A stretch of 64,000 nt of DNA, taken from the NCBI GenBank assembly GCA_937899265.1, contig CALBPV010000005.1:1041-65040 (forward strand), read 5' to 3'. This DNA is from an uncultured Bacteroidales bacterium. GTDB lineage: Bacteria; Bacteroidota; Bacteroidia; Bacteroidales; UBA3663. Positions 3,709 to 55,011 of the stretch are shown here, piece by piece. The notes below the pieces were generated by a model. That model did not search any database. It was not told the origin of the DNA and saw only the letters and a list, made by a program, of their open reading frames with translations. Numbering within the stretch: position 1 is the first letter of the stretch; every line of letters starts with the position of its first letter. The translations under genes were made by a program, and so were the position numbers.

Positions 3709-6090
3709 ATGTACAACAAATCACTACTGCCCAAATGCGGGAAGTTTCTGGTCGCTCTGTCCGCTGTCGTGCTCACAATGACGGCTTGTCAGGACGACTT
3801 GGGAGATGACAGCCATTACAAAGCTCCCTCCTTCCTGGCCGGAAACGCCCTGCAGGTGCTTGAGAAGTCGTATGAAGGTCATACTTTCAACACCTTCCTA
3901 CGCGGCATCGAACTCGTAGGTTACAACGATGTGGTTGACAGTCAGATTCTCACGGTGCTGGCTCCGACCGACGAGGCTTTTGCCGCTTTCCTGAGGGAAA
4001 AAGGCTATGCCGGCATCGAAGATCTCTACTATGCCAATCCAACCTATGCAACACAACTGATTACCTATCACCTCCTCTACTATGCGATGGATTGGGACAA
4101 GATGACCAATTTCCGTCCTTCCGAGGGCGATGCCGCCACCGAGAGCCAACGGGCCCGGATGGCAGGCATGTACAACAGGTACAGAACACGTTGTGCGGTG
4201 GAGGAAACCGTCGAATTCAACAGCGAAGCTTCCGTCAACGCCAACGTGCGAGTGGTTCACTACGACCGCTACCTGACAGTCTTCTCTGAGAAACTCTTTG
4301 CCACCTTGGGAATCGATGCTGCTTCCAACTACAATTATTTCTTCCCCAACACGGAGTGGAATCCCAAACATCTGGACAACGGCTTCAATGTCATGAACGC
4401 AGCCGTGCTCGACACTGCCGCTGTGGTCACCGACAACGGATATCTCTACCACATCGACCACGTCATTGAGCCCGTGGGAACCATCTACGACGAGATTTCT
4501 TCCAACCAGGACTACTCGCTCGTCAAGAACCTCTTCGACCAATACGGCTATTACCTCATAGACAATGACGAATCGGACAACCGAGGATACACCGTCTATT
4601 CCCATCGTTTCAGTTCTCTGCCCGACATCGCCTCCGAATGGGCCGTTTCGGACTATCTGGCTTTTGCAACCAACAGTTTCGCTTCCTACAACCTCTTCAT
4701 TCCCACCGACCGGGCTCTCAACAAGATGTTCTCGGAATATTGGGAAGAAGGTTGCGGCTACTCTTCGGTGGCCGACCTCAACCCCGCCATCCAGGGAATC
4801 CTCCTCCAGGAGTGCGTGGGTTACATTGACGTGGACGGCGTACGCACGACACAGTATATGTGCTATCCCGACTATATACGTGAGGGCAAGGTGCAGTCGA
4901 GCTTCGGCACGACCATCGAGAACGATCCCTCTTCGTTCGACGAGAACCTCTTCTGCAATAACGGCGTCATTTACGGTTCGTCGCAGATGGAGGTGCCCGG
5001 AGTGTTCTCGTCGGTCGCCGGCCCCGCTTTCAAGGACGTGAAATACCTGCCTTATCTCTATGCTCTCTACGGTGCCGACCTCCTCCTTTCTCTGTCTTCC
5101 AAGGAGTCGGACTATATCGCCCTCATTCCCGACACCGCCCAGTTCGCCCACAACGACCCCGCCATGCGCCTCTTCCGAAGCACTGCCTCCGGAACGACAA
5201 CCTACACCCTCCAACAGTGGAACGACGAGGTTTCCGACTACGTCAACATGGGTACTTCCACCATGCGCGACATCGCCAATATGCACACCTCCACCGATGC
5301 CACCGAGCTCAAGACCGAGGGAACGCAGGTTATCGAGACCAACGTGTCGTTCAACTACTGGTTTGTCGATAACGGCATGATTACGACCAATGCACTCTTC
5401 AACCAGCAGCTCAACCCCACTTTCAACGAGGAAATCTGGTATCCATTCACCGAAATCAAACGAACCGCTGCGGGCCAAAACTGGAGCAACGGCAAGGCTT
5501 ACGCCTACGCCTACCCCGGTGTCTATCAGTCGGCTTCGGGAAGCAGTCTGGAAGCCGAGCTCTCTCAGAACAACGACCGCAACTATCCATACTACTGTTT
5601 CGTGCAACTGCTCCAAAAAGCCGGATTGGCTGCGGGCGGAAAATTCTCGGGTATGCTCACCCTTGACCCCGAGTCTCCCCGTTTCTTCGCCATCGTGCCC
5701 ACCAACGATGCCGTCAAGGATGCCCTCAAGAGTCTGCCCGGTTGCAGTGCACTCAATATCAATGCATCGACATACGCCATCACAGGTACCGTCTCGACAG
5801 CCAACAAAACCGTGCTCGCCAACTACCTGCTCAGCTATTTCGTCACTGCCGACCGCAACGCCTTCACCTCCTATCCCTACCTCGGTTCCACCTGCAAAGG
5901 ACGATTCGAGACCTCCGGCAACTATGCGCTCAACATCGCCGACACCGGCGACGCCATCACCGTCAACTTCGCCCCTCAAGGCTCCGCAACTCCCGAGGGT
6001 AATGTCGTCACCCTCGTCGATACCTACCATTTCCTGCCCTTCGCTTTCTCCGACGGTGCTTTCCAAATGATTGATACAGTATTACAGTAG
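3709..6090 (+). CDS. Fasciclin (FAS1) repeat surface lipoprotein.
   Basis: The signal peptide with lipobox is 'VVLTMTAC'. Four FAS1-like H1/H2 motifs are present: 'ILTVLAPTDEAFAAFL', 'NLFIPTDRALNKMF', 'YIALIPDTAQFA' and 'FFAIVPTNDAVKDAL'. It sits immediately upstream of SusC. Confidence 0.8.
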   Translation: MYNKSLLPKCGKFLVALSAVVLTMTACQDDLGDDSHYKAPSFLAGNALQVLEKSYEGHTFNTFLRGIELVGYNDVVDSQILTVLAPTDEAFAAFLREKGYAGIEDLYYANPTYATQLITYHLLYYAMDWDKMTNFRPSEGDAATESQRARMAGMYNRYRTRCAVEETVEFNSEASVNANVRVVHYDRYLTVFSEKLFATLGIDAASNYNYFFPNTEWNPKHLDNGFNVMNAAVLDTAAVVTDNGYLYHIDHVIEPVGTIYDEISSNQDYSLVKNLFDQYGYYLIDNDESDNRGYTVYSHRFSSLPDIASEWAVSDYLAFATNSFASYNLFIPTDRALNKMFSEYWEEGCGYSSVADLNPAIQGILLQECVGYIDVDGVRTTQYMCYPDYIREGKVQSSFGTTIENDPSSFDENLFCNNGVIYGSSQMEVPGVFSSVAGPAFKDVKYLPYLYALYGADLLLSLSSKESDYIALIPDTAQFAHNDPAMRLFRSTASGTTTYTLQQWNDEVSDYVNMGTSTMRDIANMHTSTDATELKTEGTQVIETNVSFNYWFVDNGMITTNALFNQQLNPTFNEEIWYPFTEIKRTAAGQNWSNGKAYAYAYPGVYQSASGSSLEAELSQNNDRNYPYYCFVQLLQKAGLAAGGKFSGMLTLDPESPRFFAIVPTNDAVKDALKSLPGCSALNINASTYAITGTVSTANKTVLANYLLSYFVTADRNAFTSYPYLGSTCKGRFETSGNYALNIADTGDAITVNFAPQGSATPEGNVVTLVDTYHFLPFAFSDGAFQMIDTVLQ

Positions 6091-6099
6091 TCTCAAAAC

Positions 6100-6155
6100 G
6101 AAACTTGAAACTTGAAACTTGAAACTTGAAACTTGAAACTTGAAACTTGAAACTT
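6100..6155 (+). repeat. Tandem heptamer array, 8 perfect copies of GAAACTT.
   Basis: Direct reading gives units starting at 6100, 6107, 6114, 6121, 6128, 6135, 6142 and 6149. The array lies between the fasciclin stop (6088-6090) and the ATG at 6159. Confidence 0.97.
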
Positions 6156-6158
6156 TTT

Positions 6159-9100
6159 ATGATGAATCGATTAGCGGACAAGGCCGTAAGCCTTAGACCT
6201 TTGACTTTTGTCTTTAGACTGAGAAAATTAGCGGACAAGGCCGTAAGCCTTAGACCTTTGACTTTTGTCTTTATTTTCTTCATGCTGTTCTGTTTCGGGG
6301 CTGCCGTGGCACTGGCACAGAACAAGACCATGACAGGTACCGTCATCGAGGAGGGTGTCAACGAGCCCATCTACGGCGCCAACGTCGTCGTCATTAATCA
6401 GCAGAACCGAACCCTCGGCGGTACAATTACCGACCTCGACGGCAATTTCGTGCTCAACGTGCCCGAGGGCAAGAATCTGAGAATCCAGATTTCTTTCATC
6501 GGTCTCAAGACGCAGACTTTCAACTACACCGGGCAGAGCAAACTCAACGTCACCCTTGCCAGCGACTCCAAGTTGCTGGGCGATGTCGAGGTCGTCACCA
6601 AAGCCGTCACCCGTTCCGAACTCGGTATCACCGACATCCAACAGACCTCTTCCACCCAGCGTGTCCAGATGGCAGAGCTCACCGAGGTCGCTCCCGTGGC
6701 CTCCATCGAAGAGGCGCTCCAGGGTCAGATGGCCGGCGTGGACATCGTGTTGGGCGGTGACCCCGGCGCCAAGTCCTCCATCCGCATCCGAGGCGTCAGC
6801 ACCCTCTCCTCTTCCGCCGAACCTCTCGTCGTCGTCGATGGTATTCCCACCACCGTTTCTTTCGGCGACGACTTCTCGTTCTCCGATGCCAACGAGGATG
6901 ACTTCGGTGCCCTCCTCAACATCTCGCCCGCCGACATCGAAAGCATCGAGGTGCTCAAGGATGCCGCCGCAACCTCTATCTACGGCACCGCCGGTTCCAA
7001 CGGTGTGCTCCTCATCAACACCAAGCAGGGCAAGACCGGCAAGACTCGCTTCAACTTCCAGTCCAAGTTCTCCTACAAGGAAGAGCCCGCAACCATCCCC
7101 CTGCTCAACGGCAAACAGTACATCTCCATGATTGAGGATGCCATCTGGAATGCCGCCAATGCCAAGGGGCTCGCCTCCGCCGCCTCCGAACTCAACCTCC
7201 TCTTCAATACCAAGGAGTTGCTTCGCGACCCCTCCTACCGCTACTACAACGAATATAATGTCGATACCGACTGGCTCGACCAAGTGCGCCAGAACGCTTG
7301 GCAGTGGGACAACTCCTTCAGCATGACCGGCGGCGGCGAAAAAGCCACCTACCGCCTGTCGTTCGGATATCTCGACGATATCGGCACAACCATCGGTACC
7401 GAGGCCCGCCGTATCACTGCCGGTGCCAAGATTACCTATAAGTTCTCCGACCGTTTCCGCATCTACACCGACCTCTCCTACACCGACTACGACAAAGATG
7501 CCAACGCCGTCGAGAACGTGCGTTCCCGCGCTCAGGCCATGATGCCAAACCAGAGCCCCTACCTCATGAACGACGACGGAACCCCCAGTGCGTCCTATTT
7601 CACGCCCGAGGAAAACTTCCAGGGCTCGTTCTCCGGTGTGAGCAGCAGCAATAACGGACTGGGCAACTTCAACCCCGTGGCCATGGCTAAGGAGTCATAC
7701 AAGAACACACGCGAGCGCACCGAGAAGATTACCATCGACTGGGAGTACAAGTTCCCGCTCAAGCAAGAGTGGCAGCACCTCACCTACGAGGGATACGTCA
7801 ACATGAACATGAAGACCTCCGCCACCAAGACCTTCCTGCCCCAAGTGGCCACCGGCGTGCTGTGGACCAACACCTACGCCAACCGCTCCACCGAGGCCGC
7901 CAGCGATGCCTTCTCCCTCCAGTTCTACAACAAGATACTTTATGTGGCAACCATTGCCGAGAAACACAACATCGTCTTCACCGGCATCGCCAATACCACC
8001 ACAACCCATTCCGCCTCTGCCTCCAACAGCACCTACGCCAACGTCTCCATCAACCTCAGCGACCCCATCGTCGGATCCACCGTCGGCGGCGCCTCATCCG
8101 GCGACAGCGAGAACCGTAAGGTGCGTTTCACCGAGAGCCTCAACTACGCCTACGACAACCGATATGTCCTCTCCGCCGTCGTGACCGAGGAAGGAAACTC
8201 CGCAATGGGCAAGAACCAGCGATTCGGCGTCTTCCCCGCTTTCGGCGCCTCGTGGAACCTCGAGAAGGAGCATTTCATGGAAAATCATGAGTGGCTCACC
8301 CAGGGCAAGCTCCGCGCCTCGCTCGGTTGGTCCGGCAACGCGCCCTCATCAGGCTACAGCTACCTCGGCGCTTACTCCTCGTTGGGCACCTACGGCTCGA
8401 TGAGCGCCATCTCGCCCAGCCGGATGCAGCTCGACAAACTCAAATGGGAAAGCAGTCGCGAATGGGATCTCGGTCTCGACCTCCGCATCCTCGACCGCTA
8501 CGGCCTCACCATCGACTACTACGACAAATACACCGAAGACTGTCTGATGTCAAGTGTCGCCATCCCCTCCACCTCCGGCTACACCTCCCTCAAGTACATG
8601 AACTCGGGAGAAATGTCCAACAAGGGTTACGAAATACGTCTCGACGTGGATATCTTCAAGAGCAAGATGTGGTCCGCAAAAATCAGCGTCAACGCTGCCC
8701 GCAACATCAACAAGGTGGAACAGATTCCCACCAACTGGACGGCCGAGAACTACTCGTTCGGCAACGGCAACTACGCCGTGCGCATCGTGGAAGGCGACCC
8801 CATCGGCTCCTTCTACGGGTACAGGTATCTCGGTGTATATCGTGACAGCGAGGACACCTACGCACGGGATGCCAGCGGCAACGTGATGCGTGACTTCAAC
8901 GGCGATGTTGTCACCATGAAGAACGGTACCACTCAGGTCTATGCCGGTGATGCCAAGTACGAGGACATCAACCACGACGGTGTAATCAACGAACAGGACA
9001 TTGTCTATCTCGGCAACTCCAACCCGACCCTCACCGGCGGCGGTAACTTCAACCTCAAATACGGCAACACGAAGACCTCGTTCGGACAGTTCTCGCTCAC

Positions 9101-47801: not shown

Positions 47802-49049
47802 ATGCGTTACATCCTCTCCCCCTCGGTTTTGGCCACAGACTTCGCTGTGAGTCTCCCTGCTTCGAAAAGCATCAGCAACCGCGCCCTCATCCTTCGGGCA
47901 TTGTCCGGCAGTCCGGCTATCGGGCATCTCTCCGACAGCGACGACACGGCGGTACTGATACGTGCACTGCACGGCGACTTGCGGGGAACGATTGACATCG
48001 GTGCTGCCGGCACCTCAATGCGATTTCTGACGGCCTATTTGGCTTCCTTTCCGGGAGCCGACGTCACATTGACGGGGTCGGAACGCATGCTACAGCGTCC
48101 CATCGGCATCCTGGTCGATTCGCTTCGCAGGCTCGGAGCCGATATCGCATACCTCGGCGCTGAAGGATTTCCTCCGCTTCGCATTCGCGGAAAACGCCTT
48201 CGGGGAGGCAGCCAGACTATGGCCGGCAATGTTTCGTCACAGTTCATCTCGGCCCTGCTGATGGTAGCTCCAACGTTTGAAGAGGGGTTGGAACTTCACC
48301 TCTCGGGCAAAGTGACCTCCATACCCTACATTGAGATGACGCTCTCCATGATGAGTAGTTTCGGGGTGGAATCCCGTTGGGACCGCGCATCGCAAGTCAT
48401 CGTCATTCCCTCCGAAGCTGAATACAAAGCCTTGGAGCAAAGTTATGCAGTGGAATCCGATTGGAGCGGAGCGTCCTACTGGTACGAGATAGCGGCTCTC
48501 TCGGGCAGGACCGTCCAGCTTCTCAATCTCCCGGAAAAGAGTTTGCAAGGCGATGCCCGCATCCGCGACTATTTCCACGACCTTGGAGTGGTCACCGACT
48601 TCAGCGACAACGATGCCCGGTTGCGTCCGGATCCTGCACTCCGCAGAGAGAGCCTCTCGCTCGACCTCGCCTCCCAGCCGGACATGGCCCAAACCTTTGT
48701 GGCGACCTGCTGTGCGTTGGGCATTCGGTTCAACATCACAGGTCTCCATACCCTCCGTATCAAAGAGACCGACCGCATAGCAGCTCTTGAGACCGAGCTC
48801 CGCAAATTGGGCTACGTTGTCACCGACCGCGACAACGACATCATGAGCTGGGACGGCACACGCTGTCAACCGATGAAGCAACCGGTCATCGACACCTACA
48901 AAGACCACCGCATGGCCTTGGCGCTTGCCCCGTTGTGTCTGTGTTCAGCACAGCCGCTCGCCATTAACAATCCGGCAGTTGTCACCAAATCCTATCCCGA
49001 ATACTGGAATCATCTCCGGGCTTTCGGCATTAACATCCGTCAAGAATGA
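47802..49049 (+). CDS. aroA: 3-phosphoshikimate 1-carboxyvinyltransferase (EPSP synthase).
   Basis: Motifs are 'LPASKSISNRALIL', 'GAAGTSMRFL', 'LQRPIGILVDSL' and 'DHRMALA'. Confidence 0.92.
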   Translation: MRYILSPSVLATDFAVSLPASKSISNRALILRALSGSPAIGHLSDSDDTAVLIRALHGDLRGTIDIGAAGTSMRFLTAYLASFPGADVTLTGSERMLQRPIGILVDSLRRLGADIAYLGAEGFPPLRIRGKRLRGGSQTMAGNVSSQFISALLMVAPTFEEGLELHLSGKVTSIPYIEMTLSMMSSFGVESRWDRASQVIVIPSEAEYKALEQSYAVESDWSGASYWYEIAALSGRTVQLLNLPEKSLQGDARIRDYFHDLGVVTDFSDNDARLRPDPALRRESLSLDLASQPDMAQTFVATCCALGIRFNITGLHTLRIKETDRIAALETELRKLGYVVTDRDNDIMSWDGTRCQPMKQPVIDTYKDHRMALALAPLCLCSAQPLAINNPAVVTKSYPEYWNHLRAFGINIRQE

Positions 49050-49543
49050 ACGCATTTATACAAGGTCTGATTATTTTGGTGGGTGCCCTCGTCCTGTTGG
49101 GCGCTGTGGTGGGCATCACGGCCCTCTTTGGACACAAACGGTTCAAGCGCCGCGAAGCCAAAGGCATATTGGAGCCCGGCGAAACATCGCCTCTCGACAC
49201 GGTAAACGTCCCCGTGGAATGTTGCGGACAACACGCGACCTGCGAACGCGACTCTCTGCTGGCAGCCGTGTCGAAAGAAATCATTTACTACAGCGATGAG
49301 GAGTTGGACACCTATCAAGGCATTCCCTCCGACAAATATACTGACGAGCAGGCCGAAGAATTTGCCGACATCTTCTACGAACTGCGTGAGATTGAGGTTG
49401 CCGGTTGGGTCAGAAGTCTCCAACTGCGAGGCATCGAAATCCCCGACCAAATCAAGGACGAAGTTCTTTTGGTGGTTCGCGAACGACGTTTCGAGCCCGT
49501 CAGCAACGGTGTAGATCACTCCAACGACAAAGTCGCTTCCTGA
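49046..49543 (+). CDS. Small membrane-anchored protein with a CCGxHxxCE cysteine motif, function unknown.
   Basis: It has an N-terminal TM helix ('GLIILVGALVLLGAVVGITALF'), the motif 'ECCGQHATCERD' and an acidic C-terminal half. Its start overlaps the aroA stop (ATGA). Confidence 0.5.
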   Translation: MNAFIQGLIILVGALVLLGAVVGITALFGHKRFKRREAKGILEPGETSPLDTVNVPVECCGQHATCERDSLLAAVSKEIIYYSDEELDTYQGIPSDKYTDEQAEEFADIFYELREIEVAGWVRSLQLRGIEIPDQIKDEVLLVVRERRFEPVSNGVDHSNDKVAS

Positions 49544-49565: not shown

Positions 49566-52500
49566 ATGTTGCTCGAATACCTTTTTTTCCGTCATGCGCT
49601 CCTCGGAGCATTGCTCGTCAGCTTGTGCTGCGGCATCATCGGCACCTACGTGGTGACGCGACGCCGTGTGTTCATTGCCGGCGGCATCACTCATGCTTCT
49701 TTGGGCGGTCTCGGCTTGGGCATCTTTGCGGGACTCAATCCGACATGGGTGGCTGTTGTCTTTGCCATTGTGGCGGCATGGGCGGTACAGTGGCTTTCGT
49801 CGCGCCGCAACATACGCGAGGATTCGGCCATTGCCGTATGCTGGTCGTTTGGCATGGCGCTGGGCATCATTTTCATATTCCTGACACCGGGGTATGCACC
49901 TTCGCTCACGGAATACCTTTTCGGCAACATCCTGACCATCACTGCGGGTGACCTGTGGACAATGGGCATTTTTACGGCCGTACTGCTGGCTTTCCAAATC
50001 ATCTGCCAACGCGCCATTCTCTATGTGGCCTTCGATGCGTCTTTTGCGCGTATCCAACGGTTCCGTTCGGGATTGGTTGATTATACGATGACTGCACTCA
50101 CCGCCGTGGCCATCGTGCTTTCCATCCGCATGATTGGCATCGTGCTTTTGCTGTCGGTGCTCACGCTGCCCCAAATGATGGCATCTCTTTTCTGCAACGA
50201 ATACCGCCGTCTTGTGATTCTTTCGAGTTTACTCTGTTTTGCAGGATGCGTCGGCGGTCTTTTGGTCTCTGTGGCGCTGAACGTTCCCGCAGGAGCCTGT
50301 ATCGTTGCCCTCATGGTAGTTGTCTATTTTGTAATGCGCGGAGTGCTGCATCTTGTGCGCCGTCGCAGCAGTGCCGCTGTGATTGTCATCATGGTGCTTT
50401 CGGCCCTGACGCTTTCCGGCTGCAAGTCCAACACGGCCCTCAATCGCGGCATGCGCGCTTTCACCACGAAATTCAATCCCTATTTCAACGGCGAAGAAGC
50501 CTATAAGAAAGGACTGATTACGATGGAATCCCGGCAAGATGACGAATATTCCGAACGCATCTTCCTCCATCCCGTCCACAAATATGTGGGACAGGAGCCG
50601 GGCTCTGACGCCAACTTCCAGCGTGCTGTCGAGAAATGCAAGATTTGCGTCCAGACCAAGAGCATGAATACTCCGCCCAAATCACGTCCGGACAATCCGT
50701 CGAAGGAATACCGAGAATGGTTGAAACATTCGGAGTTCAATCCCTTCCTCCACAATGCCTGGTTCCTGAGCGGGAAGGCTCAGTTCATGATGGGCAACTT
50801 CGATGCGGCCGAGGCCACTTTCCGCTATACAGCGCGCAAGTTCTATTGGAAGGAACTTCTTTTGCAGGAGTGCCACATTTGGCTGGCCCGCTGTGCCGTG
50901 ATGAAAAAAGACTACTATCAGGCCGAGGCGGAACTCGAACAGGTCATTCCTGCCAAGAACTACAGTTCACAAAACTCGCTTGGACAGAATGCAGTCTATA
51001 AAAACCTCCCTGCGAGAGTACAGAACGAGTTTTCTCTCGTCAAAGCCGAGATGTTGCTCCTGCAGCCTGGCAACGAAGCGGCTGTGCTCGACTACCTGAC
51101 CAAGGGACGGAAAGCCTTCCTGAGCAAGGATCAGCGTGTGAGGACACGGTTCTTCATGGCCCAGCTCCATGAAGAATTGTCCCATAGCGCAGCATCTTCT
51201 GCCGAACGGGAGGTTCATCGGAAACAGGCTTACAAGTTGTACAGGAACATCACCCACAGCGCCAGCAATTACAAGACGCAATTCAATGCCCGCATTGCAG
51301 CCACCCGCGTAATGCCGACCGACAATCTCGACAAGGTGGAGAAAAAACTGCGTCACCTCTCCTGGCAAGCCCGCAATAAAGAGTACCTCGACCAGATTTG
51401 CTATGCCCTCGGCAACGTCGAACTGGCCCGCAAGGACACGGCCAAAGCCGTCGAATGGTACGAACGTGCCGTAGAGAAGAGCACCCGCAACGGTCTCGAC
51501 AAAGCCGTGGCAGCCCTGCGTTTGGGAGAACTGACTTTCGAACAGGCCGACTATGTGCGGGCACAAAAGGGTTATTCTGCCGCCATGGGCATCATCAAAG
51601 ACACCTATCCGGGATACGATTCCATCCGGCATATCTCCCAAGTGCTCGATGCTTTGCAGACGCATGCCGAATCAGTCCACCTTCAGGACAGCCTGCTCAC
51701 GTTGGCGGCTCTGCCCGAAGATTCGCTCAACGAAGCCATCGACCGCATCATCAAAGAATTGACACGTCAGGAGAAGGAAGCCGAGGATGCTCAGAAAATG
51801 CAGGCCTACAACGACAAACAATCCTCCCGTGTGGATCCCCTTGCCCAAGTTGCGCCCAACATTCCGCAAGTCGGGACACAGGACAAATCGTGGTATTTCT
51901 ACAATCCGTCGGTCATCACGCGCGGCAAACAGGAGTTCCAGCGTCGTTGGGGTGCCCGCAAGCCTGAGGACGATTGGAGACGCAAGGACAAAACGGCCAG
52001 CCTATTGGCTGCTGCCGAGGAAATGCAGGACACCATTGTGGAAACTGCCGACAACATTTCTCCTGAAATCCCGGCAGACACACCTTCCGACATTTCGTCA
52101 GGGGACATTGCTCCCGCCGAAACGGCAGAAGCGGCTCCCGTCGATTCGGTCTTCCTCGAGAAGGCTCAGGATCCCCACAACCGCGAATACTATCTCGCAC
52201 AGCTGCCCTTCACGCCCGAACAGAAAGATGCCTGCCACGCCATCATCGAAGAAGGTCTCTATAACGAAGGCGTCATCATCAACGAACAGTTGGAGAACTT
52301 CCCGCTGGCCATCAAAACATTCACCGAGGTCGAGAACCGCTATCCCGAATCGGCCCGCCGCCTCGACATGTGGTATGCCATCTATCTGATGTACATGCGC
52401 ATGAATCAGCCCGAGAAGGCCGAAATCTACCGTCAGAAGCTGATGGAAGGCTTCCCCGAGGCAGCCTACACCAAAGCTGTGGCCGACCCGAACTACATCC

Positions 52501-53441
52501 AGAACCTCCGGGCAATGGCTGCCGGACAGGATTCGCTTTACATACGGACTTACGAAGACTACCTTGCCGGACATTCTCGGCAGGTGCACGAGGCATATTT
52601 CTGGGTACACGACAACTGGCCGCTCTCGAAGCTAATGCCCAAATTCATCTTCCTCCACGCTCTCTCCTATATACAGGAAGGTGACGTAAAGAGTTTCCAG
52701 GAAGCCCTCGAACAACTCACGGCCACTTATCCCGAGAGTGATGTTTCTCCGTTGGCCGGCATGATGGTCAAAGGCATCCACGAAGGACGCAACGTACAGA
52801 CCGGTTCCACCAACAGAGGCATGATGTGGGGCAGTTCACTCCATCGCGAGGGGGACAGCATTGCCGTAGATTCCTCCATGATGTTTGTCAACGACCTCAA
52901 GGCTCCCTTTGTCCTGCTTTTGGCCTATCCTACCGACTCGCTCAATCAGAACGACCTGCTCTTCGAAATTGCCAAATTCAACTTCGAGAGCTTCCTCGTG
53001 AAAGACTTCGACCTCGAAATCATAAATACGGGCGGCGGTCTCAGCGTGTTGGTCATCAGCCAGTTCGCCGACATCAACGAGCTCCTCGACTACCACAACA
53101 AGATGGATGTTTCCGAGACGCTCTGGTTGCCCGACAACATTACAATGATTGATATCTCGGTGCCCAACTTCCGTGCCCTCCTCGCCGGACGCACCTTCGA
53201 AGAATACTTCCAATGGGTAGAGAAGACATACGGTGGCGGAGAAGAAGGAGATTCCGAGAAATCAGACAACTCTGACAATTCCGAGAAATCAGACAATTCC
53301 GACAATTCCGACAATTCCGAGAAATCAGACAACTCCGACAACTCTGACAACTCCGACAATTCCGACAATTCCGACAACTCCGACAACTCCGAGAAATCAG
53401 ACAATTCTGACAACTCCGACAACTCCGACAACTCCTTTTAA
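49566..53441 (+). CDS. Single 1291-codon ORF. It joins an ABC-3 (ZnuB/MntB-type) metal-transporter permease (~aa 1-256) in frame to a PorW/SprE-like TPR lipoprotein (aa 257 to the end).
   Basis: The permease part carries 'VFIAGGITHASLGGLGLG' and multiple TM segments. No stop intervenes before 'MRGVLHLVRRRSSAAVIVIMVLSALTLSGC' (ATG 50334), a complete lipoprotein signal peptide. Then follow 'FTTKFNPYFNGEEAYKKG', many TPR-like helices and an SDN/SEK repeat tail. The PorW assignment comes from remembered family features and adjacency to porX. Confidence 0.7.
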   Translation: MLLEYLFFRHALLGALLVSLCCGIIGTYVVTRRRVFIAGGITHASLGGLGLGIFAGLNPTWVAVVFAIVAAWAVQWLSSRRNIREDSAIAVCWSFGMALGIIFIFLTPGYAPSLTEYLFGNILTITAGDLWTMGIFTAVLLAFQIICQRAILYVAFDASFARIQRFRSGLVDYTMTALTAVAIVLSIRMIGIVLLLSVLTLPQMMASLFCNEYRRLVILSSLLCFAGCVGGLLVSVALNVPAGACIVALMVVVYFVMRGVLHLVRRRSSAAVIVIMVLSALTLSGCKSNTALNRGMRAFTTKFNPYFNGEEAYKKGLITMESRQDDEYSERIFLHPVHKYVGQEPGSDANFQRAVEKCKICVQTKSMNTPPKSRPDNPSKEYREWLKHSEFNPFLHNAWFLSGKAQFMMGNFDAAEATFRYTARKFYWKELLLQECHIWLARCAVMKKDYYQAEAELEQVIPAKNYSSQNSLGQNAVYKNLPARVQNEFSLVKAEMLLLQPGNEAAVLDYLTKGRKAFLSKDQRVRTRFFMAQLHEELSHSAASSAEREVHRKQAYKLYRNITHSASNYKTQFNARIAATRVMPTDNLDKVEKKLRHLSWQARNKEYLDQICYALGNVELARKDTAKAVEWYERAVEKSTRNGLDKAVAALRLGELTFEQADYVRAQKGYSAAMGIIKDTYPGYDSIRHISQVLDALQTHAESVHLQDSLLTLAALPEDSLNEAIDRIIKELTRQEKEAEDAQKMQAYNDKQSSRVDPLAQVAPNIPQVGTQDKSWYFYNPSVITRGKQEFQRRWGARKPEDDWRRKDKTASLLAAAEEMQDTIVETADNISPEIPADTPSDISSGDIAPAETAEAAPVDSVFLEKAQDPHNREYYLAQLPFTPEQKDACHAIIEEGLYNEGVIINEQLENFPLAIKTFTEVENRYPESARRLDMWYAIYLMYMRMNQPEKAEIYRQKLMEGFPEAAYTKAVADPNYIQNLRAMAAGQDSLYIRTYEDYLAGHSRQVHEAYFWVHDNWPLSKLMPKFIFLHALSYIQEGDVKSFQEALEQLTATYPESDVSPLAGMMVKGIHEGRNVQTGSTNRGMMWGSSLHREGDSIAVDSSMMFVNDLKAPFVLLLAYPTDSLNQNDLLFEIAKFNFESFLVKDFDLEIINTGGGLSVLVISQFADINELLDYHNKMDVSETLWLPDNITMIDISVPNFRALLAGRTFEEYFQWVEKTYGGGEEGDSEKSDNSDNSEKSDNSDNSDNSEKSDNSDNSDNSDNSDNSDNSDNSEKSDNSDNSDNSDNSF
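53250..53435 (+). repeat. Coding 9-nt tandem repeat, ~20 units (TCC GAC AAY = SDN, with interspersed TCC GAG AAA = SEK).
   Basis: It reads directly as D-(SEK)(SDN)2(SEK)(SDN)3(SEK)(SDN)7(SEK)(SDN)4-SF-stop at the C-terminus of the PorW-like ORF. Confidence 0.95.
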
Positions 53442-53457
53442 ATAATACACGCGCGAT

Positions 53458-55011
53458 ATGAGCAATCCCAAGATACTGTGGGCCGACGATGAAATCGACC
53501 TCTTGAAACCCCACATCCTCTTCCTTTCCAACAAAGGATACGACATAACCCCCGTAACCAACGGTCAGGATGCCATTGATCAAGTCAAGTCCGAAACCTT
53601 CGACTTGGTCTTCCTCGACGAGAACATGCCCGGCCTCACGGGCCTCGAGGCCTTGACGCGCATCAAGGAACTCGACCCCTCACTCCCCGTCATCATGGTG
53701 ACCAAGAGCGAGGAGGAAGACATCATGGAGCAGGCCATCGGCAGCAAGATAGCCGACTACCTCATCAAGCCCGTCCTACCCACCCAAATGCTGATGTCCA
53801 TCAAGAAGAATCTGCACGCCCGCGAAATCACGCAGCAGCAGAACACTTCCGGCTACCAGCAGGAATTCGGCAAGCTGTCGATGCAAATCAATATGGCCCA
53901 GACCTTCGACGAGTGGGTCGAGATATATAAACGTCTCGTCTGGTGGGAGATAGAACTCTCGGCCAGCGATGCGAGCCTCGACAGCATGCTCCTGATGCAG
54001 AAAGAGGAAGCCAATGCGGCCTTTGCCAAGTTCGTACGCCGCAACTACGAGACCTGGATCAAGAGCAGCTATCCCGACCGCCCGCTCATGAGTCCCGACC
54101 TTTTCAAGACCCACATCTTTCCCGCCCTCGATGCCGGTGAGAAAGTTTTCCTCGTCGTCATCGACAATTTCCGTCTGGACCAGTGGCGCATACTCCAGCC
54201 CCTGCTGTCCGAATGGTTCACCGCCAAGGAGGAGGTCTATAGTGCCATCCTCCCCACAGCAACGCAATACGCGCGCAATGCCATCTTCTCGGGCCTCCTG
54301 CCCGACAAGATTGCCAAGATGTTTCCCGACCTCTGGGTCGATGAGGACGAAGAGGAAGGCAAGAACCTCAACGAAGCGCCCCTCATTCAGACACAGCTTG
54401 ACCGATATCGCAAGCACTATGACTTCTCTTACAACAAAGTGAACGAAAACAGCTACGGCGAACGTCTCGTGGGAAAACTCAAAGACCTCTCCCACAACGA
54501 CCTCAACGTCATAGTACTCAATTTCATCGACATGTTGAGCCATGCCCGCACAGAGTCCAAAACCGTACGCGAATTGGCTTCCGACGAGGCTGCCTATCGC
54601 GCTCTTACCAAGACCTGGCTCGAACACAGCGCCACACTCGACCTCTTCCGCCGCATAGCGGAAATGGGCTACAAAGTGGTGCTCACAACCGACCACGGCA
54701 CCGTGCGCGTCGAGAATCCCATCCGCGTTGTGGGTGACAAGAATGTCAATACCAACCTGCGCTACAAGTTGGGCAAGAATCTCAACTATCCGGCCAAACA
54801 GGTCTATGAAATCAAGAAACCCGAGGAGTTCGGTCTGCCCCGCCTTGACCTCTCCACGGCTTACATCTTCGCCACCGGCAAAGACTTTTTCGCCTACCCC
54901 AACAACTACAACGTCTATGTGCCCTATTATCGCGGCACCTTCCAGCACGGAGGCATCTCTATGGAAGAAATGCTCATCCCCCTCATCACGCTGGAACCCA
55001 AGAAAAGATAA
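53458..55011 (+). CDS. porX: T9SS response regulator PorX (CheY-like receiver plus PglZ/alkaline-phosphatase-superfamily domain).
   Basis: The receiver domain is 'ILWADDEIDLLKPHILFL...FLDENMPGLTGLE...VIMVTKSEEE..IGSKIADYLIKPV'. The C-terminal ~390 aa PglZ-like part contains 'VIDNFRLDQW' and 'TDHGT'. Length (517 aa) and architecture match PorX. Confidence 0.85.
   Translation: MSNPKILWADDEIDLLKPHILFLSNKGYDITPVTNGQDAIDQVKSETFDLVFLDENMPGLTGLEALTRIKELDPSLPVIMVTKSEEEDIMEQAIGSKIADYLIKPVLPTQMLMSIKKNLHAREITQQQNTSGYQQEFGKLSMQINMAQTFDEWVEIYKRLVWWEIELSASDASLDSMLLMQKEEANAAFAKFVRRNYETWIKSSYPDRPLMSPDLFKTHIFPALDAGEKVFLVVIDNFRLDQWRILQPLLSEWFTAKEEVYSAILPTATQYARNAIFSGLLPDKIAKMFPDLWVDEDEEEGKNLNEAPLIQTQLDRYRKHYDFSYNKVNENSYGERLVGKLKDLSHNDLNVIVLNFIDMLSHARTESKTVRELASDEAAYRALTKTWLEHSATLDLFRRIAEMGYKVVLTTDHGTVRVENPIRVVGDKNVNTNLRYKLGKNLNYPAKQVYEIKKPEEFGLPRLDLSTAYIFATGKDFFAYPNNYNVYVPYYRGTFQHGGISMEEMLIPLITLEPKKR

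What the first reader, a model, noticed from the sequence alone, without database searches (positions are those of the whole stretch)
49566..53441. An ABC-3 metal-transporter permease reads without a stop codon into a PorW/SprE-like T9SS lipoprotein that keeps its own signal peptide
Seen directly:
- One open frame of 1291 codons spans the region.
- Codons 1-256 form a complete-looking ZnuB/MntB-type permease ('FIAGGITHASLGG', hydrophobic to '...MVVVYFV').
- Codon 257 (ATG 50334) begins MRGVLHLVRRRSSAAVIVIMVLSALTLSGC|KSN. This is a textbook lipoprotein signal peptide with a basic n-region, a hydrophobic core and an LSGC lipobox. About 1000 aa of TPR-rich sequence follow.
- The junction reads GTAATGCGC. 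Stops exist just upstream in the +1 frame (TAG 50317, TAA 50332 in a TAATG arrangement).
- No ATPase or substrate-binding partner gene flanks the permease.

Inference, three possibilities:
(a) a 1-nt indel, genuine or a sequencing error, near the permease 3' end destroyed its stop;
(b) the two proteins are made separately, with internal initiation at 50334, while the permease carries a huge C-terminal extension;
(c) it is a genuine fusion tethering a T9SS periplasmic component to an inner-membrane permease.

Options (b) and (c) would be novel for T9SS biology.
Basis: partly seen in the sequence, partly recalled or inferred. Interest (0 to 1): 0.6.

Follow-up and report, generated by a model that had tools for sequence, protein, structure and literature searches.

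The report
Permease and PorW genes fused
Two neighbouring genes, a membrane transporter subunit and the PorW lipoprotein of the type IX secretion system, have lost the stop codon between them, so PorW's export signal now sits in the middle of one long protein; this is real, has arisen several times in gut Bacteroidales, and is probably undone after translation by the normal lipoprotein-processing enzymes.

Summary
One 1291-codon ORF (49566-53441) joins a complete ABC-3/PsaC-type permease (aa 1-256) to a bona fide PorW/SprE (NCBIfam equivalog, 561 bits against a cutoff of 250), which keeps its lipobox (L-S-G-C286).

It is not a sequencing error. The window's own ≥90% cluster has 15 fused members on independent assemblies. 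Fused ORFs occur in at least four PorW clades, and some are very abundant (one Prevotella cluster has 1802 members).

The ancestral state is two genes. In 36 of 80 reference loci the permease sits directly upstream of porW with a stop between them, inside a conserved block aroA - 165-aa membrane protein - permease - porW - porX. Eight of those loci are one point mutation away from fusion. A sister lineage has lost the permease altogether.

Both halves are under strong purifying selection (dN/dS 0.05 and 0.07), whereas the linker evolves quickly (0.53) yet always keeps the lipobox Cys.

Best reading: a stop-loss fusion whose product is a precursor. PorW's signal peptide acts as a tenth membrane helix, and Lgt/LspA release normal lipidated PorW. 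Processing is inferred, not shown. Internal initiation at ATG 50334 cannot be excluded. A permanent tether is unlikely.

The parts
49046..49543 (+). Conserved 165-aa upstream neighbour: N-terminal membrane helix, then ECCGQHxxCE, YYDDEELD and EVAGWxRSLQLRG motifs. Function unknown.
   Evidence: No Pfam, NCBIfam or PDB hit. Found between aroA and the permease, or directly before porW, in most of the 88 fetched loci (L001-L088). Alignment A2.
49566..50333 (+). ABC-3 / PsaC-type permease domain (aa 1-256), nine membrane helices. The Asp of the metal coordination site is replaced by Gly39; His43 is kept.
   Evidence: PF00950 211.6 bits. PsaC 7KYP E=1.6e-25. AF2 model pLDDT 80; Foldseek to 7KYP TM-score 0.82, rmsd 2.9 A. 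Motif GG[IV]THA in all relatives. dN/dS 0.052.
50334..50363 (+). Basic cytoplasmic tail (M257-R266, MRGVLHLVRR; R266 begins the next segment in the model). It is homologous to the permease's own C-terminal tail (...KAIKxxxRR*) in separate-gene relatives. It contains the candidate internal start ATG 50334.
   Evidence: Positive-inside pattern. The context of the ATG resembles background internal ATGs.
50364..50420 (+). Hydrophobic core of the PorW signal peptide (aa 267-285), which serves as a tenth membrane helix in the fusion.
   Evidence: Hydropathy. AF2 helix 269-287 at lower confidence. Present in all fused and separate relatives.
50412..50423 (+). Lipobox L-S-G-C (aa 283-286). Cys286 is the predicted lipidation and LspA cleavage site.
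   Evidence: Cys286 is invariant in alignments A1 and A3. The lipobox Cys is present in 172 of 172 fused proteins on file.
50421..53441 (+). Mature PorW/SprE (aa 286-1291 plus stop), TPR-rich.
   Evidence: NF052312 561.5 bits against a cutoff of 250, aa 281-1067. TPR families. dN/dS 0.07.
53253..53435 (+). C-terminal low-complexity tail: 9-nt tandem repeat, about 20 copies, encoding (SDN)n with SEK interruptions.
   Evidence: Homologues carry non-homologous acidic tails.
53458..55011 (+). porX (T9SS response regulator with PglZ domain), 16 nt downstream of the fused ORF.
   Evidence: NF052313 816.6 bits against a cutoff of 300. Adjacent to porW in most loci.

Best explanation
This is a genuine, heritable gene fusion created by loss of the stop codon between two ancestrally adjacent, tightly packed genes: an atypical ABC-3 permease and porW.

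Because the permease no longer has a stop, it can only be made with PorW attached. The join is topologically harmless. The permease ends in the cytoplasm with a basic tail. The former PorW signal peptide then crosses the membrane as a tenth helix, and the PorW domain is exported by Sec.

The retained lipobox is then used by Lgt and signal peptidase II (LspA). This cuts the precursor before Cys286 and releases normal lipidated PorW for transport to the outer membrane. The permease keeps a roughly 30-residue C-terminal extension. The end products are therefore the same two proteins as in relatives with separate genes, which explains why the fusion arises repeatedly and persists. Some PorW may also come from internal initiation at ATG 50334.

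Shown here: the ORF, the domain identities, the ancestral two-gene state, recurrence, purifying selection on both halves, lipobox retention and a consistent topology. Inferred: translocation, lipidation and cleavage.
For: - Real and heritable. Fused homologues run from 85% down to 32% identity. The P0001 cluster has 15 members of 1247-1265 aa on independent contigs up to 149 kb. Abundant Prevotella-type clusters have 1802, 785, 337 and 238 members.
- Ancestral two-gene state. Of 80 reference loci, 36 have the permease and porW adjacent but separate, 4 are fused and 36 have no co-oriented permease directly upstream of porW. In the separate loci the stop lies 0-50 nt before the porW start. P. 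distasonis reads TAA + 7 nt + ATG.
- Easy to make. In 8 of the 36 separate loci the permease stop is the only in-frame stop between the two ORFs.
- Recurrent. Fused ORFs fall in at least 4 clades of a PorW tree, interleaved with separate and permease-less loci.
- Both halves are functional. Window vs L088 dN/dS is 0.052 for the permease, 0.072 for PorW and 0.53 for the linker.
- The lipobox is kept although the linker evolves quickly. Cys286 is invariant and the lipobox Cys is present in 172 of 172 fused proteins.
- Topology fits. K+R counts are 3, 3, 3, 2, 3 in alternate (inside) loops and 1, 0, 0, 0, 0 in the others. PsaC has nine helices and was purified with a C-terminal GFP fusion (PMC8346216). 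The AF2 model gives nine helices plus a separate helix at 269-287.
- An internal start is not conserved. Residue 257 is Met, Leu (CTG in L081) or Ala among relatives. L083 has no ATG, GTG or TTG in the 40 codons before the Cys. Only 53 of 172 fused proteins have a Met in the tail or n-region. The context of ATG 50334 resembles background internal ATGs.
- PorW must reach the outer membrane as a lipoprotein (PMC8754138).
- Precedent: internalised prolipoprotein signal sequences were reported to be modified and processed in E. coli and B. subtilis (Hayashi et al. 1985, PMID 2985611; title confirmed, content from memory).
Against: - No direct evidence exists for translocation, lipidation or cleavage of this precursor. 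I know of no natural bacterial case in which LspA cleaves behind a nine-helix membrane protein.
- Every fused locus except L083 has at least one ATG, GTG or TTG that could start a usable signal peptide, and porW often uses GTG or TTG starts in separate-gene relatives. Internal initiation could therefore be the real source of PorW.
- The start-free stretch in L083 is not statistically unusual (P about 0.07-0.11), and an ATG inside the last permease helix (-42) could in principle start a long signal peptide.
- The NJ tree is rough, so the number of independent events is approximate.
Confidence: 0.58

Rival explanations
1. Two proteins by internal initiation. Functional PorW is translated independently from ATG 50334 (or a nearby GTG) with its own signal peptide. 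The read-through permease-PorW polypeptide is a tolerated by-product that is degraded, or happens to be processed as well.
For: - The window has ATG at -29 and GTG at -26 and -22 relative to Cys286. Each would give a signal peptide with 3-4 basic residues.
- Most fused loci keep some start-like codon in the n-region.
- porW in separate-gene relatives commonly starts at GTG or TTG right after the permease stop, so it may be used to weak or coupled initiation.
Against: - M257 is not conserved: it is Leu (CTG) or Ala in fused relatives.
- L083 lacks any ATG, GTG or TTG in the last 40 codons before the Cys.
- Upstream of 50334 the A fraction is 0.15 and the fold energy -6.8 kcal/mol. That matches background internal ATGs (0.20, -6.9) and not genuine starts in this window (0.39 +/- 0.14, -2.4).
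- The permease is under strong purifying selection and has no stop, so the fusion polypeptide is made in any case and still needs a fate.
Confidence: 0.27
2. Stable functional fusion. PorW stays covalently tethered to the inner-membrane permease, physically linking a transporter to the T9SS.
For: - Deep conservation of permease-porW adjacency, together with repeated fusion, is the classic 'Rosetta stone' hint of a functional link.
- The permease is atypical: it lacks the coordination-site Asp and has no ATPase or binding protein nearby.
Against: - The lipobox Cys is maintained in all 172 fused proteins although the linker evolves quickly. An uncleaved tether would not need it.
- PorW is an outer-membrane lipoprotein bridging PorN and Sov (PMC8754138).
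- Most PorW genes are unfused: about 3% of the 150 best representatives and 4 of 80 reference loci are fused.
- Sister lineages with the same synteny have lost the permease from this locus entirely (L082, L001, L002, L075, L080).
Confidence: 0.08
3. Artefact or decay: a sequencing or assembly error removed the stop, or the permease part is a pseudogene remnant ahead of a normal porW.
For: TAG and TAA lie in the +1 frame just before ATG 50334, in a TAATG arrangement that resembles an overlapping stop/start.
Against: - The zero frame matches homologues residue by residue through the junction (YFVMRGV in the window, YLAMRGV in P0001 and P0008).
- The fused ORF is found in many independent assemblies.
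- The permease domain is complete: profile positions 2-253 of 258, a confident PsaC-like model, and dN/dS 0.05.
Confidence: 0.02

Closest known systems
Separate permease + porW gene pair of other Bacteroidales (e.g. Parabacteroides distasonis, locus L053)
   Same: Same two proteins, in the same order and within the same block aroA - small membrane protein - permease - porW. The permease has the same basic tail, and PorW has the same hydrophobic core and lipobox.
   Different: In P. distasonis a TAA stop and a 7-nt spacer separate the genes and porW has its own ATG-KK n-region. In the window the stop is gone and the permease tail has taken the place of the n-region.
PorW (P. gingivalis) / SprE (F. 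johnsoniae), T9SS outer-membrane lipoprotein
   Same: Passes the NCBIfam equivalog model. TPR-rich, with a type II signal peptide and a conserved Cys. Lies next to porX (PMC8754138).
   Different: The signal peptide is internal, preceded by a 256-residue polytopic membrane domain. The protein also carries a species-specific (SDN)n tail.
PsaC / ZnuB / MntB-type ABC-3 permeases (type II metal ABC importers; PDB 7KYP, 9OKO)
   Same: Sequence family PF00950, nine-helix fold (TM-score 0.82 to 7KYP), conserved His of the coordination site.
   Different: The coordination-site Asp is Gly in the whole porW-adjacent subfamily. Scores fall below every NCBIfam equivalog cutoff. No ATPase or binding-protein gene lies nearby.
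Bradyrhizobium FbcH cytochrome b/c1 precursor (from memory; no paper retrieved)
   Same: One ORF encodes a polytopic inner-membrane protein followed by an internal signal sequence and a periplasm-facing protein. The precursor is split post-translationally into two functional proteins.
   Different: Cleavage there is by a type I-like signal peptidase and the two products stay in one complex. Here a lipobox implies Lgt and LspA, and the released protein goes to the outer membrane.
Engineered internalised prolipoprotein signal sequences (Hayashi et al. 1985, J Biol Chem 260:5753, PMID 2985611)
   Same: A lipoprotein signal peptide placed behind extra N-terminal sequence was still lipid-modified and processed (title confirmed; result from memory).
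   Different: Those were artificial constructs with short soluble extensions, not a natural nine-helix membrane protein.
ABC importers with the binding domain fused to the permease (e.g. OpuA, GlnPQ of Lactococcus; from memory)
   Same: An extracytoplasmic domain is joined to an ABC permease through an extra membrane-spanning segment.
   Different: In those cases the fused domain is the transporter's own substrate receptor and stays attached. Here it is an unrelated secretion-system lipoprotein with a cleavage motif.

Membership tests
PorW/SprE (T9SS periplasm-facing outer-membrane lipoprotein) | Matches the curated equivalog model NF052312 above its cutoff | tested here: met
   561.5 bits against a cutoff of 250; aa 281-1067 cover profile positions 3-716 of 716.
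PorW/SprE (T9SS periplasm-facing outer-membrane lipoprotein) | Type II signal peptide with a lipobox and conserved +1 Cys | tested here: met
   L-S-G-C286 preceded by a basic stretch and 19 hydrophobic residues. The Cys is invariant in A1 and A3 and present in 172 of 172 fused proteins. The signal is internal, not N-terminal.
PorW/SprE (T9SS periplasm-facing outer-membrane lipoprotein) | Genomic association with other T9SS genes | tested here: met
   porX (NF052313, 816.6 bits) lies 16 nt downstream. porW-porX adjacency is seen in most loci.
PorW/SprE (T9SS periplasm-facing outer-membrane lipoprotein) | Outer-membrane location; bridges PorN and Sov; required for secretion | not testable with these tools
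   Known for P. gingivalis PorW (PMC8754138). Needs fractionation, interaction studies and genetics in a carrier strain.
ABC-3 metal ABC importer permease (ZnuB/MntB/PsaC) | Pfam PF00950 above the gathering score, full length | tested here: met
   211.6 bits against 20.1; profile positions 2-253 of 258.
ABC-3 metal ABC importer permease (ZnuB/MntB/PsaC) | Nine-helix type II importer fold | tested here: met
   AF2 model pLDDT 80, pTM 0.73. Foldseek to PsaC 7KYP: E=2.7e-14, TM-score 0.82, rmsd 2.9 A over 256 columns.
ABC-3 metal ABC importer permease (ZnuB/MntB/PsaC) | Asp + His metal coordination site in TM2 (PsaC Asp46/His50), essential for import | tested here: not met
   Asp46 aligns to Gly39; His50 aligns to His43. 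The site's definition and conservation come from PMC8346216. Gly is universal in the porW-adjacent subfamily.
ABC-3 metal ABC importer permease (ZnuB/MntB/PsaC) | Meets an NCBIfam equivalog cutoff (ZnuB, AztB, SloB and others) | tested here: not met
   AztB 144 against 280; anchored-repeat permease 124 against 297; SloB 100 against 460; ZnuB 74 against 284.
ABC-3 metal ABC importer permease (ZnuB/MntB/PsaC) | Encoded with its ATPase and substrate-binding protein | tested here: not met
   No ABC_tran or ZnuA-type neighbour in the window flanks. No LSGGQ or Walker-A motif in the 64-kb window. None in seven annotated contexts. Partners elsewhere in the genome are not excluded.
Bacterial precursor polyprotein split at an internal signal peptide | Single ORF: membrane protein ending in the cytoplasm, then a signal-like segment, then an exported protein | tested here: met
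   Topology and charge pattern, AF2 helices, junction alignment.
Bacterial precursor polyprotein split at an internal signal peptide | Demonstrated post-translational cleavage into two proteins | not testable with these tools
   Needs proteomics or immunoblots, with and without globomycin or a Cys286 mutant.

The most novel reading that the evidence does not exclude
The fusion is translated as one precursor and split by the lipoprotein pathway (Lgt/LspA) at an internal lipobox. That would be a natural bacterial polyprotein made of a polytopic inner-membrane protein and an outer-membrane lipoprotein. In addition, the deep synteny and repeated fusion would reflect a real functional partnership between the T9SS and an ATPase-less, Asp-less ABC-3-type permease together with its conserved Cys-motif membrane neighbour.
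Probability: 0.15. Interest if true: 0.8.

Novelty: new variant of a known kind. Interest (0 to 1): 0.5.

Why it matters
- Annotation. PorW is annotated under generic names in many abundant gut Prevotella and other Bacteroidales ("metal ABC transporter permease", "tetratricopeptide repeat protein"). Surveys of T9SS gene content can therefore miss it or mis-size it.
- Cell biology. If the precursor model holds, these organisms offer a natural, widespread test of whether Lgt and LspA can act on a lipobox placed behind a nine-helix membrane protein. That question bears on lipoprotein biogenesis and on the design of membrane-protein fusions.
- A possible functional link. The conserved block aroA - Cys-motif membrane protein - atypical permease - porW - porX suggests an unexplored connection between a non-canonical ABC-3 permease and type IX secretion. 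This is worth a knockout in a tractable species such as Parabacteroides distasonis, where the genes are separate.

Tried and rejected
- Sequencing error or recent 1-nt indel: rejected. The zero frame matches homologues through the junction, and many independent assemblies show the same ORF.
- Pseudogenised permease: rejected. The domain is full length, the model is confident and dN/dS is 0.05.
- Exact look-up of the window's protein in the assembly collection: nothing on record.
- Literature searches for a described permease-PorW fusion or for porW neighbours: nothing relevant found. A search for the FbcH precedent returned only viral papers, so that comparison rests on memory.
- Use of start-codon presence or absence to decide between precursor and internal initiation: only suggestive. 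Most fused loci keep some start-like codon, and the start-free stretch in L083 is not statistically unusual.
- Identification of the 165-aa neighbour with Pfam, NCBIfam and a PDB profile search: no hits.
- The sigma-70 promoter/terminator scanner was not used, because Bacteroidota promoters differ from that consensus.
- The source organism was not identified beyond Bacteroidales. The closest reference-genome PorW is only 56% identical.

Full report
**1. The observation**

The window has a single open frame from 49566 to 53441 on the + strand, 1291 codons long.
- Residues 5-256 match Pfam ABC-3 (PF00950) over profile positions 2-253 of 258, at 211.6 bits.
- Residues 281-1067 match the curated NCBIfam equivalog for the T9SS lipoprotein PorW/SprE (NF052312) over its whole length, at 561.5 bits against a cutoff of 250.
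- Codon 257 is ATG at 50334. The following sequence, MRGVLHLVRRRSSAAVIVIMVLSALTLSGC|KSN, has a basic stretch, a hydrophobic core and an L-S-G-C lipobox.
- The gene 16 nt downstream is porX (NF052313, 816.6 bits). Upstream lie a 165-aa protein with no family match, then aroA and pepT.
- No ABC ATPase signature occurs anywhere in the 64-kb window.

The rest of the window is ordinary Bacteroidota chromosome: SusC/SusD loci, gyrA, glyA and others.

**2. Not an artefact**

- A search with the whole protein returned about 22 full-length fusions (1214-1363 aa, ABC-3 plus TPR) at 85% down to 32% identity.
- The window's own ≥90% identity cluster (P0001) has 15 members of 1247-1265 aa. They come from ENA, Logan, NCBI and JGI, on contigs up to 149 kb.
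- A more distant Prevotella-type group holds very abundant fused clusters with 1802, 785, 337 and 238 member sequences.
- Public records name these proteins "tetratricopeptide repeat protein [Prevotella sp. CAG:474]" (1395 aa) or "metal ABC transporter permease [Prevotella sp.]" (1233 aa).
- The zero reading frame matches homologues residue by residue across the junction. The +1-frame TAATG is therefore coincidental, and a recent 1-nt indel is excluded.

**3. The ancestral state is two genes**

I scanned one genome per species and classified 80 porW loci by tblastn and in-frame stop codons.
- 36 loci have the same permease immediately upstream of porW but separated by a stop.
- 4 loci are fused.
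- 36 loci have no co-oriented permease directly upstream of porW (one of them, L043, carries it inverted alongside; see item 4).
- 4 loci lack upstream sequence.

The separate class includes cultured Parabacteroides distasonis, other Tannerellaceae, Paraprevotella, Dysgonomonadaceae, some Muribaculaceae and some Prevotella.

In the separate loci the permease stop lies 0-50 nt before the porW start, which is often GTG or TTG directly before two lysines. P. distasonis reads ...CGG CGT TAA ttaaaga ATG AAA AAA....

In 8 of the 36 separate loci the permease stop is the only in-frame stop between the two ORFs. A single substitution there would recreate the window's architecture.

The permease tail in separate genes (...LKAIKPLLRR*) aligns with the window's VMRGVLHLVRRR. 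M257 therefore sits in the permease's own cytoplasmic tail, and the original PorW n-region has been replaced by that tail.

**4. Recurrence and context**

A neighbour-joining tree of the PorW parts places fused ORFs in at least four clades:
- the window's clade;
- a Paramuribaculum-like clade;
- a large Prevotella clade;
- a clade next to Paraprevotella.

These clades are interleaved with separate and permease-less loci, so there were several independent state changes. The tree is rough and the count is approximate.

An unbiased search with the PorW part alone against 1.84 billion representatives found 3020 relatives. Only 4 of the best 150 were fused, about 3%. That agrees with 4 fused of 80 reference loci.

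The surrounding block aroA - 165-aa protein - permease - porW - porX is conserved across these families. Several lineages have the same block with the permease cleanly missing. One of them is a sister of the window's clade (L082; also L001, L002, L075, L080). One locus has the upstream genes inverted (L043). PorW therefore does not need the permease next to it.

**5. Both halves are functional; the linker is free to change except for the lipobox**

Nei-Gojobori estimates between the window and its 85% identical relative L088:

| Segment | dN/dS |
|---|---|
| Permease | 0.052 |
| Tail plus signal peptide | 0.53 |
| PorW | 0.072 |
| PorW C-terminal domain | 0.059 |

The permease is thus not a decaying remnant. 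Because it has no stop codon, it can only be synthesised with PorW attached.

Among 172 fused proteins on file (many of them cluster mates), all keep the lipobox Cys. The distance from the last permease helix to the Cys is 18-35 residues. Cys286 is invariant in both alignments.

**6. Topology**

The permease aligns with PsaC (7KYP, E=1.6e-25) and ZnuB (9OKO).

An AlphaFold2 model of residues 1-330, built on 49 fused homologues, has mean pLDDT 80.
- It shows nine long helices plus the short gate and coupling helices.
- A separate helix spans 269-287 at lower confidence.
- The model superposes on PsaC with TM-score 0.82 and rmsd 2.9 Å over 256 columns, which is the permease only.

PsaC has nine helices per protomer and was purified with a C-terminal GFP fusion (PMC8346216). 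I take that as consistent with a cytoplasmic C-terminus; this step is an inference.

Lys+Arg counts are 3, 3, 3, 2, 3 in alternate loops and 1, 0, 0, 0, 0 in the others. That places the RGVLHLVRRR tail in the cytoplasm and Cys286 at the periplasmic face. The signal peptide can therefore act as a tenth helix that carries PorW across the membrane.

**7. How PorW is made**

P. gingivalis PorW is an outer-membrane lipoprotein that faces the periplasm and bridges PorN and Sov (PMC8754138). A permanent inner-membrane tether does not fit that role, and it would not need the strictly retained lipobox.

That leaves two routes, which are not exclusive: cleavage of the precursor by Lgt and LspA, or independent initiation inside the ORF.

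Evidence against a dedicated internal start:
- Residue 257 is Met, Leu (CTG in L081) or Ala among fused relatives.
- Only 53 of 172 fused proteins have any Met in the tail or n-region.
- L083, the 63% identical relative in the same clade, has no ATG, GTG or TTG in the 40 codons before the Cys.
- The 20 nt upstream of ATG 50334 have an A fraction of 0.15 and a local fold energy of -6.8 kcal/mol. In-frame internal ATGs of the same ORF give 0.20 and -6.9. Twenty-one gene starts in this window give 0.39 ± 0.14 and -2.4.

Evidence for an internal start:
- Most fused loci retain some start-like codon in a usable position.
- porW often uses GTG or TTG starts in separate-gene relatives.
- The start-free stretch in L083 is not statistically remarkable (P about 0.07-0.11).

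I favour the precursor route (about 0.58) over internal initiation as the main source (about 0.27). Processing has not been shown.

As precedent, internalised prolipoprotein signal sequences were reported to be modified and processed in E. coli and B. subtilis (Hayashi et al. 1985, PMID 2985611). The title is confirmed; the content is from memory. The Bradyrhizobium FbcH cytochrome b/c1 precursor is another precedent, cited from memory only.

**8. The permease is atypical**

- PsaC Asp46 and His50 form a coordination site that is essential for import and highly conserved in 52 characterised Mn/Zn importers (PMC8346216).
- Here Asp46 aligns to Gly39 and His50 to His43. The motif GG[IV]THA is universal in the porW-adjacent subfamily, whether fused or separate.
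- The protein falls below every NCBIfam equivalog cutoff.
- No ATPase or binding-protein gene appears in the window or in seven annotated contexts.

It is a member of the ABC-3 fold family, but I would not call it a ZnuB or MntB.

Its conserved partner may be the upstream 165-aa membrane protein, which carries an ECCGQHxxCE motif and has no known family. Whether this pair has anything to do with type IX secretion is open. The synteny and repeated fusion hint at a link. The clean losses of the permease argue that any link is not obligatory.

**9. Novelty and verdict**

The components are known. I found no paper describing the fusion, although such proteins sit in public databases under generic names.

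I rate it a new variant of a known kind: a recurrent, stably inherited stop-loss fusion that places a lipoprotein signal peptide inside a polytopic membrane protein. Most likely it is functionally neutral, because the lipoprotein pathway separates the products again.

Interest is moderate (0.5). A specialist would find it a neat natural experiment in lipoprotein biogenesis and a useful annotation warning, rather than a new principle of T9SS function. That assessment would change if the permease proved to be a T9SS partner.

Noticed in passing
window 49046-49543 (+); also L053 5558-5977, L081 7491-7967, L082 5512-6000: A conserved, uncharacterised small membrane protein (139-165 aa). It has an N-terminal helix followed by invariant ECCGQHxxCE, YYDDEELD and EVAGWxRSLQLRG motifs, and sits between aroA and the permease (or directly before porW) across Bacteroidales. 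No Pfam, NCBIfam or PDB match. It is a possible partner of the atypical permease.
   Followed up: partly
window 49680-49697 (aa 39-44, GGITHA): The whole porW-adjacent permease subfamily has Gly where characterised Mn/Zn ABC-3 importers have the essential coordination-site Asp (PsaC Asp46); the His is kept. Together with the absence of nearby ATPase and binding-protein genes, this suggests a non-canonical function.
   Followed up: partly
window 53253-53435: The PorW C-terminus is a 9-nt tandem repeat of about 20 copies (36-nt super-unit, 4.6 copies) encoding (SDN)n with SEK interruptions. Homologues have unrelated acidic low-complexity tails of variable length.
   Followed up: partly
protein P0030 (879 aa): The same type of permease is fused to a different downstream protein: TPR repeats, a membrane segment and an apparent C-terminal helix-turn-helix region (judged by eye from the sequence; the precomputed Pfam hits list only TPR families and ABC-3). 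The junction is again a basic stretch, a hydrophobic stretch and G-A-C, which suggests this permease fuses readily to whatever lipoprotein-like gene follows it.
   Followed up: no
protein P0031 (770 aa): An ABC-3 permease N-terminus runs, through an Arg/His/Pro-rich stretch that looks frameshifted, into an LptF/LptG-type permease (PF03739). This is probably an assembly or frameshift artefact rather than a true fusion.
   Followed up: no
loci L003, L004, L005, L008, L009, L011, L019, L024, L031, L032, L040, L062 (junction regions): In many separate-gene relatives, porW has no ATG before its signal peptide and seems to start at GTG or TTG immediately before KK, within 50 nt of the permease stop. 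This suggests that porW translation depends on coupling to the upstream permease.
   Followed up: partly
locus L043 3349-5834 versus 6043-8718: In one Muribaculaceae MAG the aroA - small protein - permease segment is inverted relative to porW, so the genes are divergent rather than tandem.
   Followed up: no
window 120-22767: Two SusC/SusD-type pairs are interleaved with fasciclin-domain and DUF5108 proteins, a PATR/fn3 protein and a protein with chitobiase C-terminal domains. This is a polysaccharide-utilisation-type region with unusual fasciclin-domain accessory proteins.
   Followed up: no
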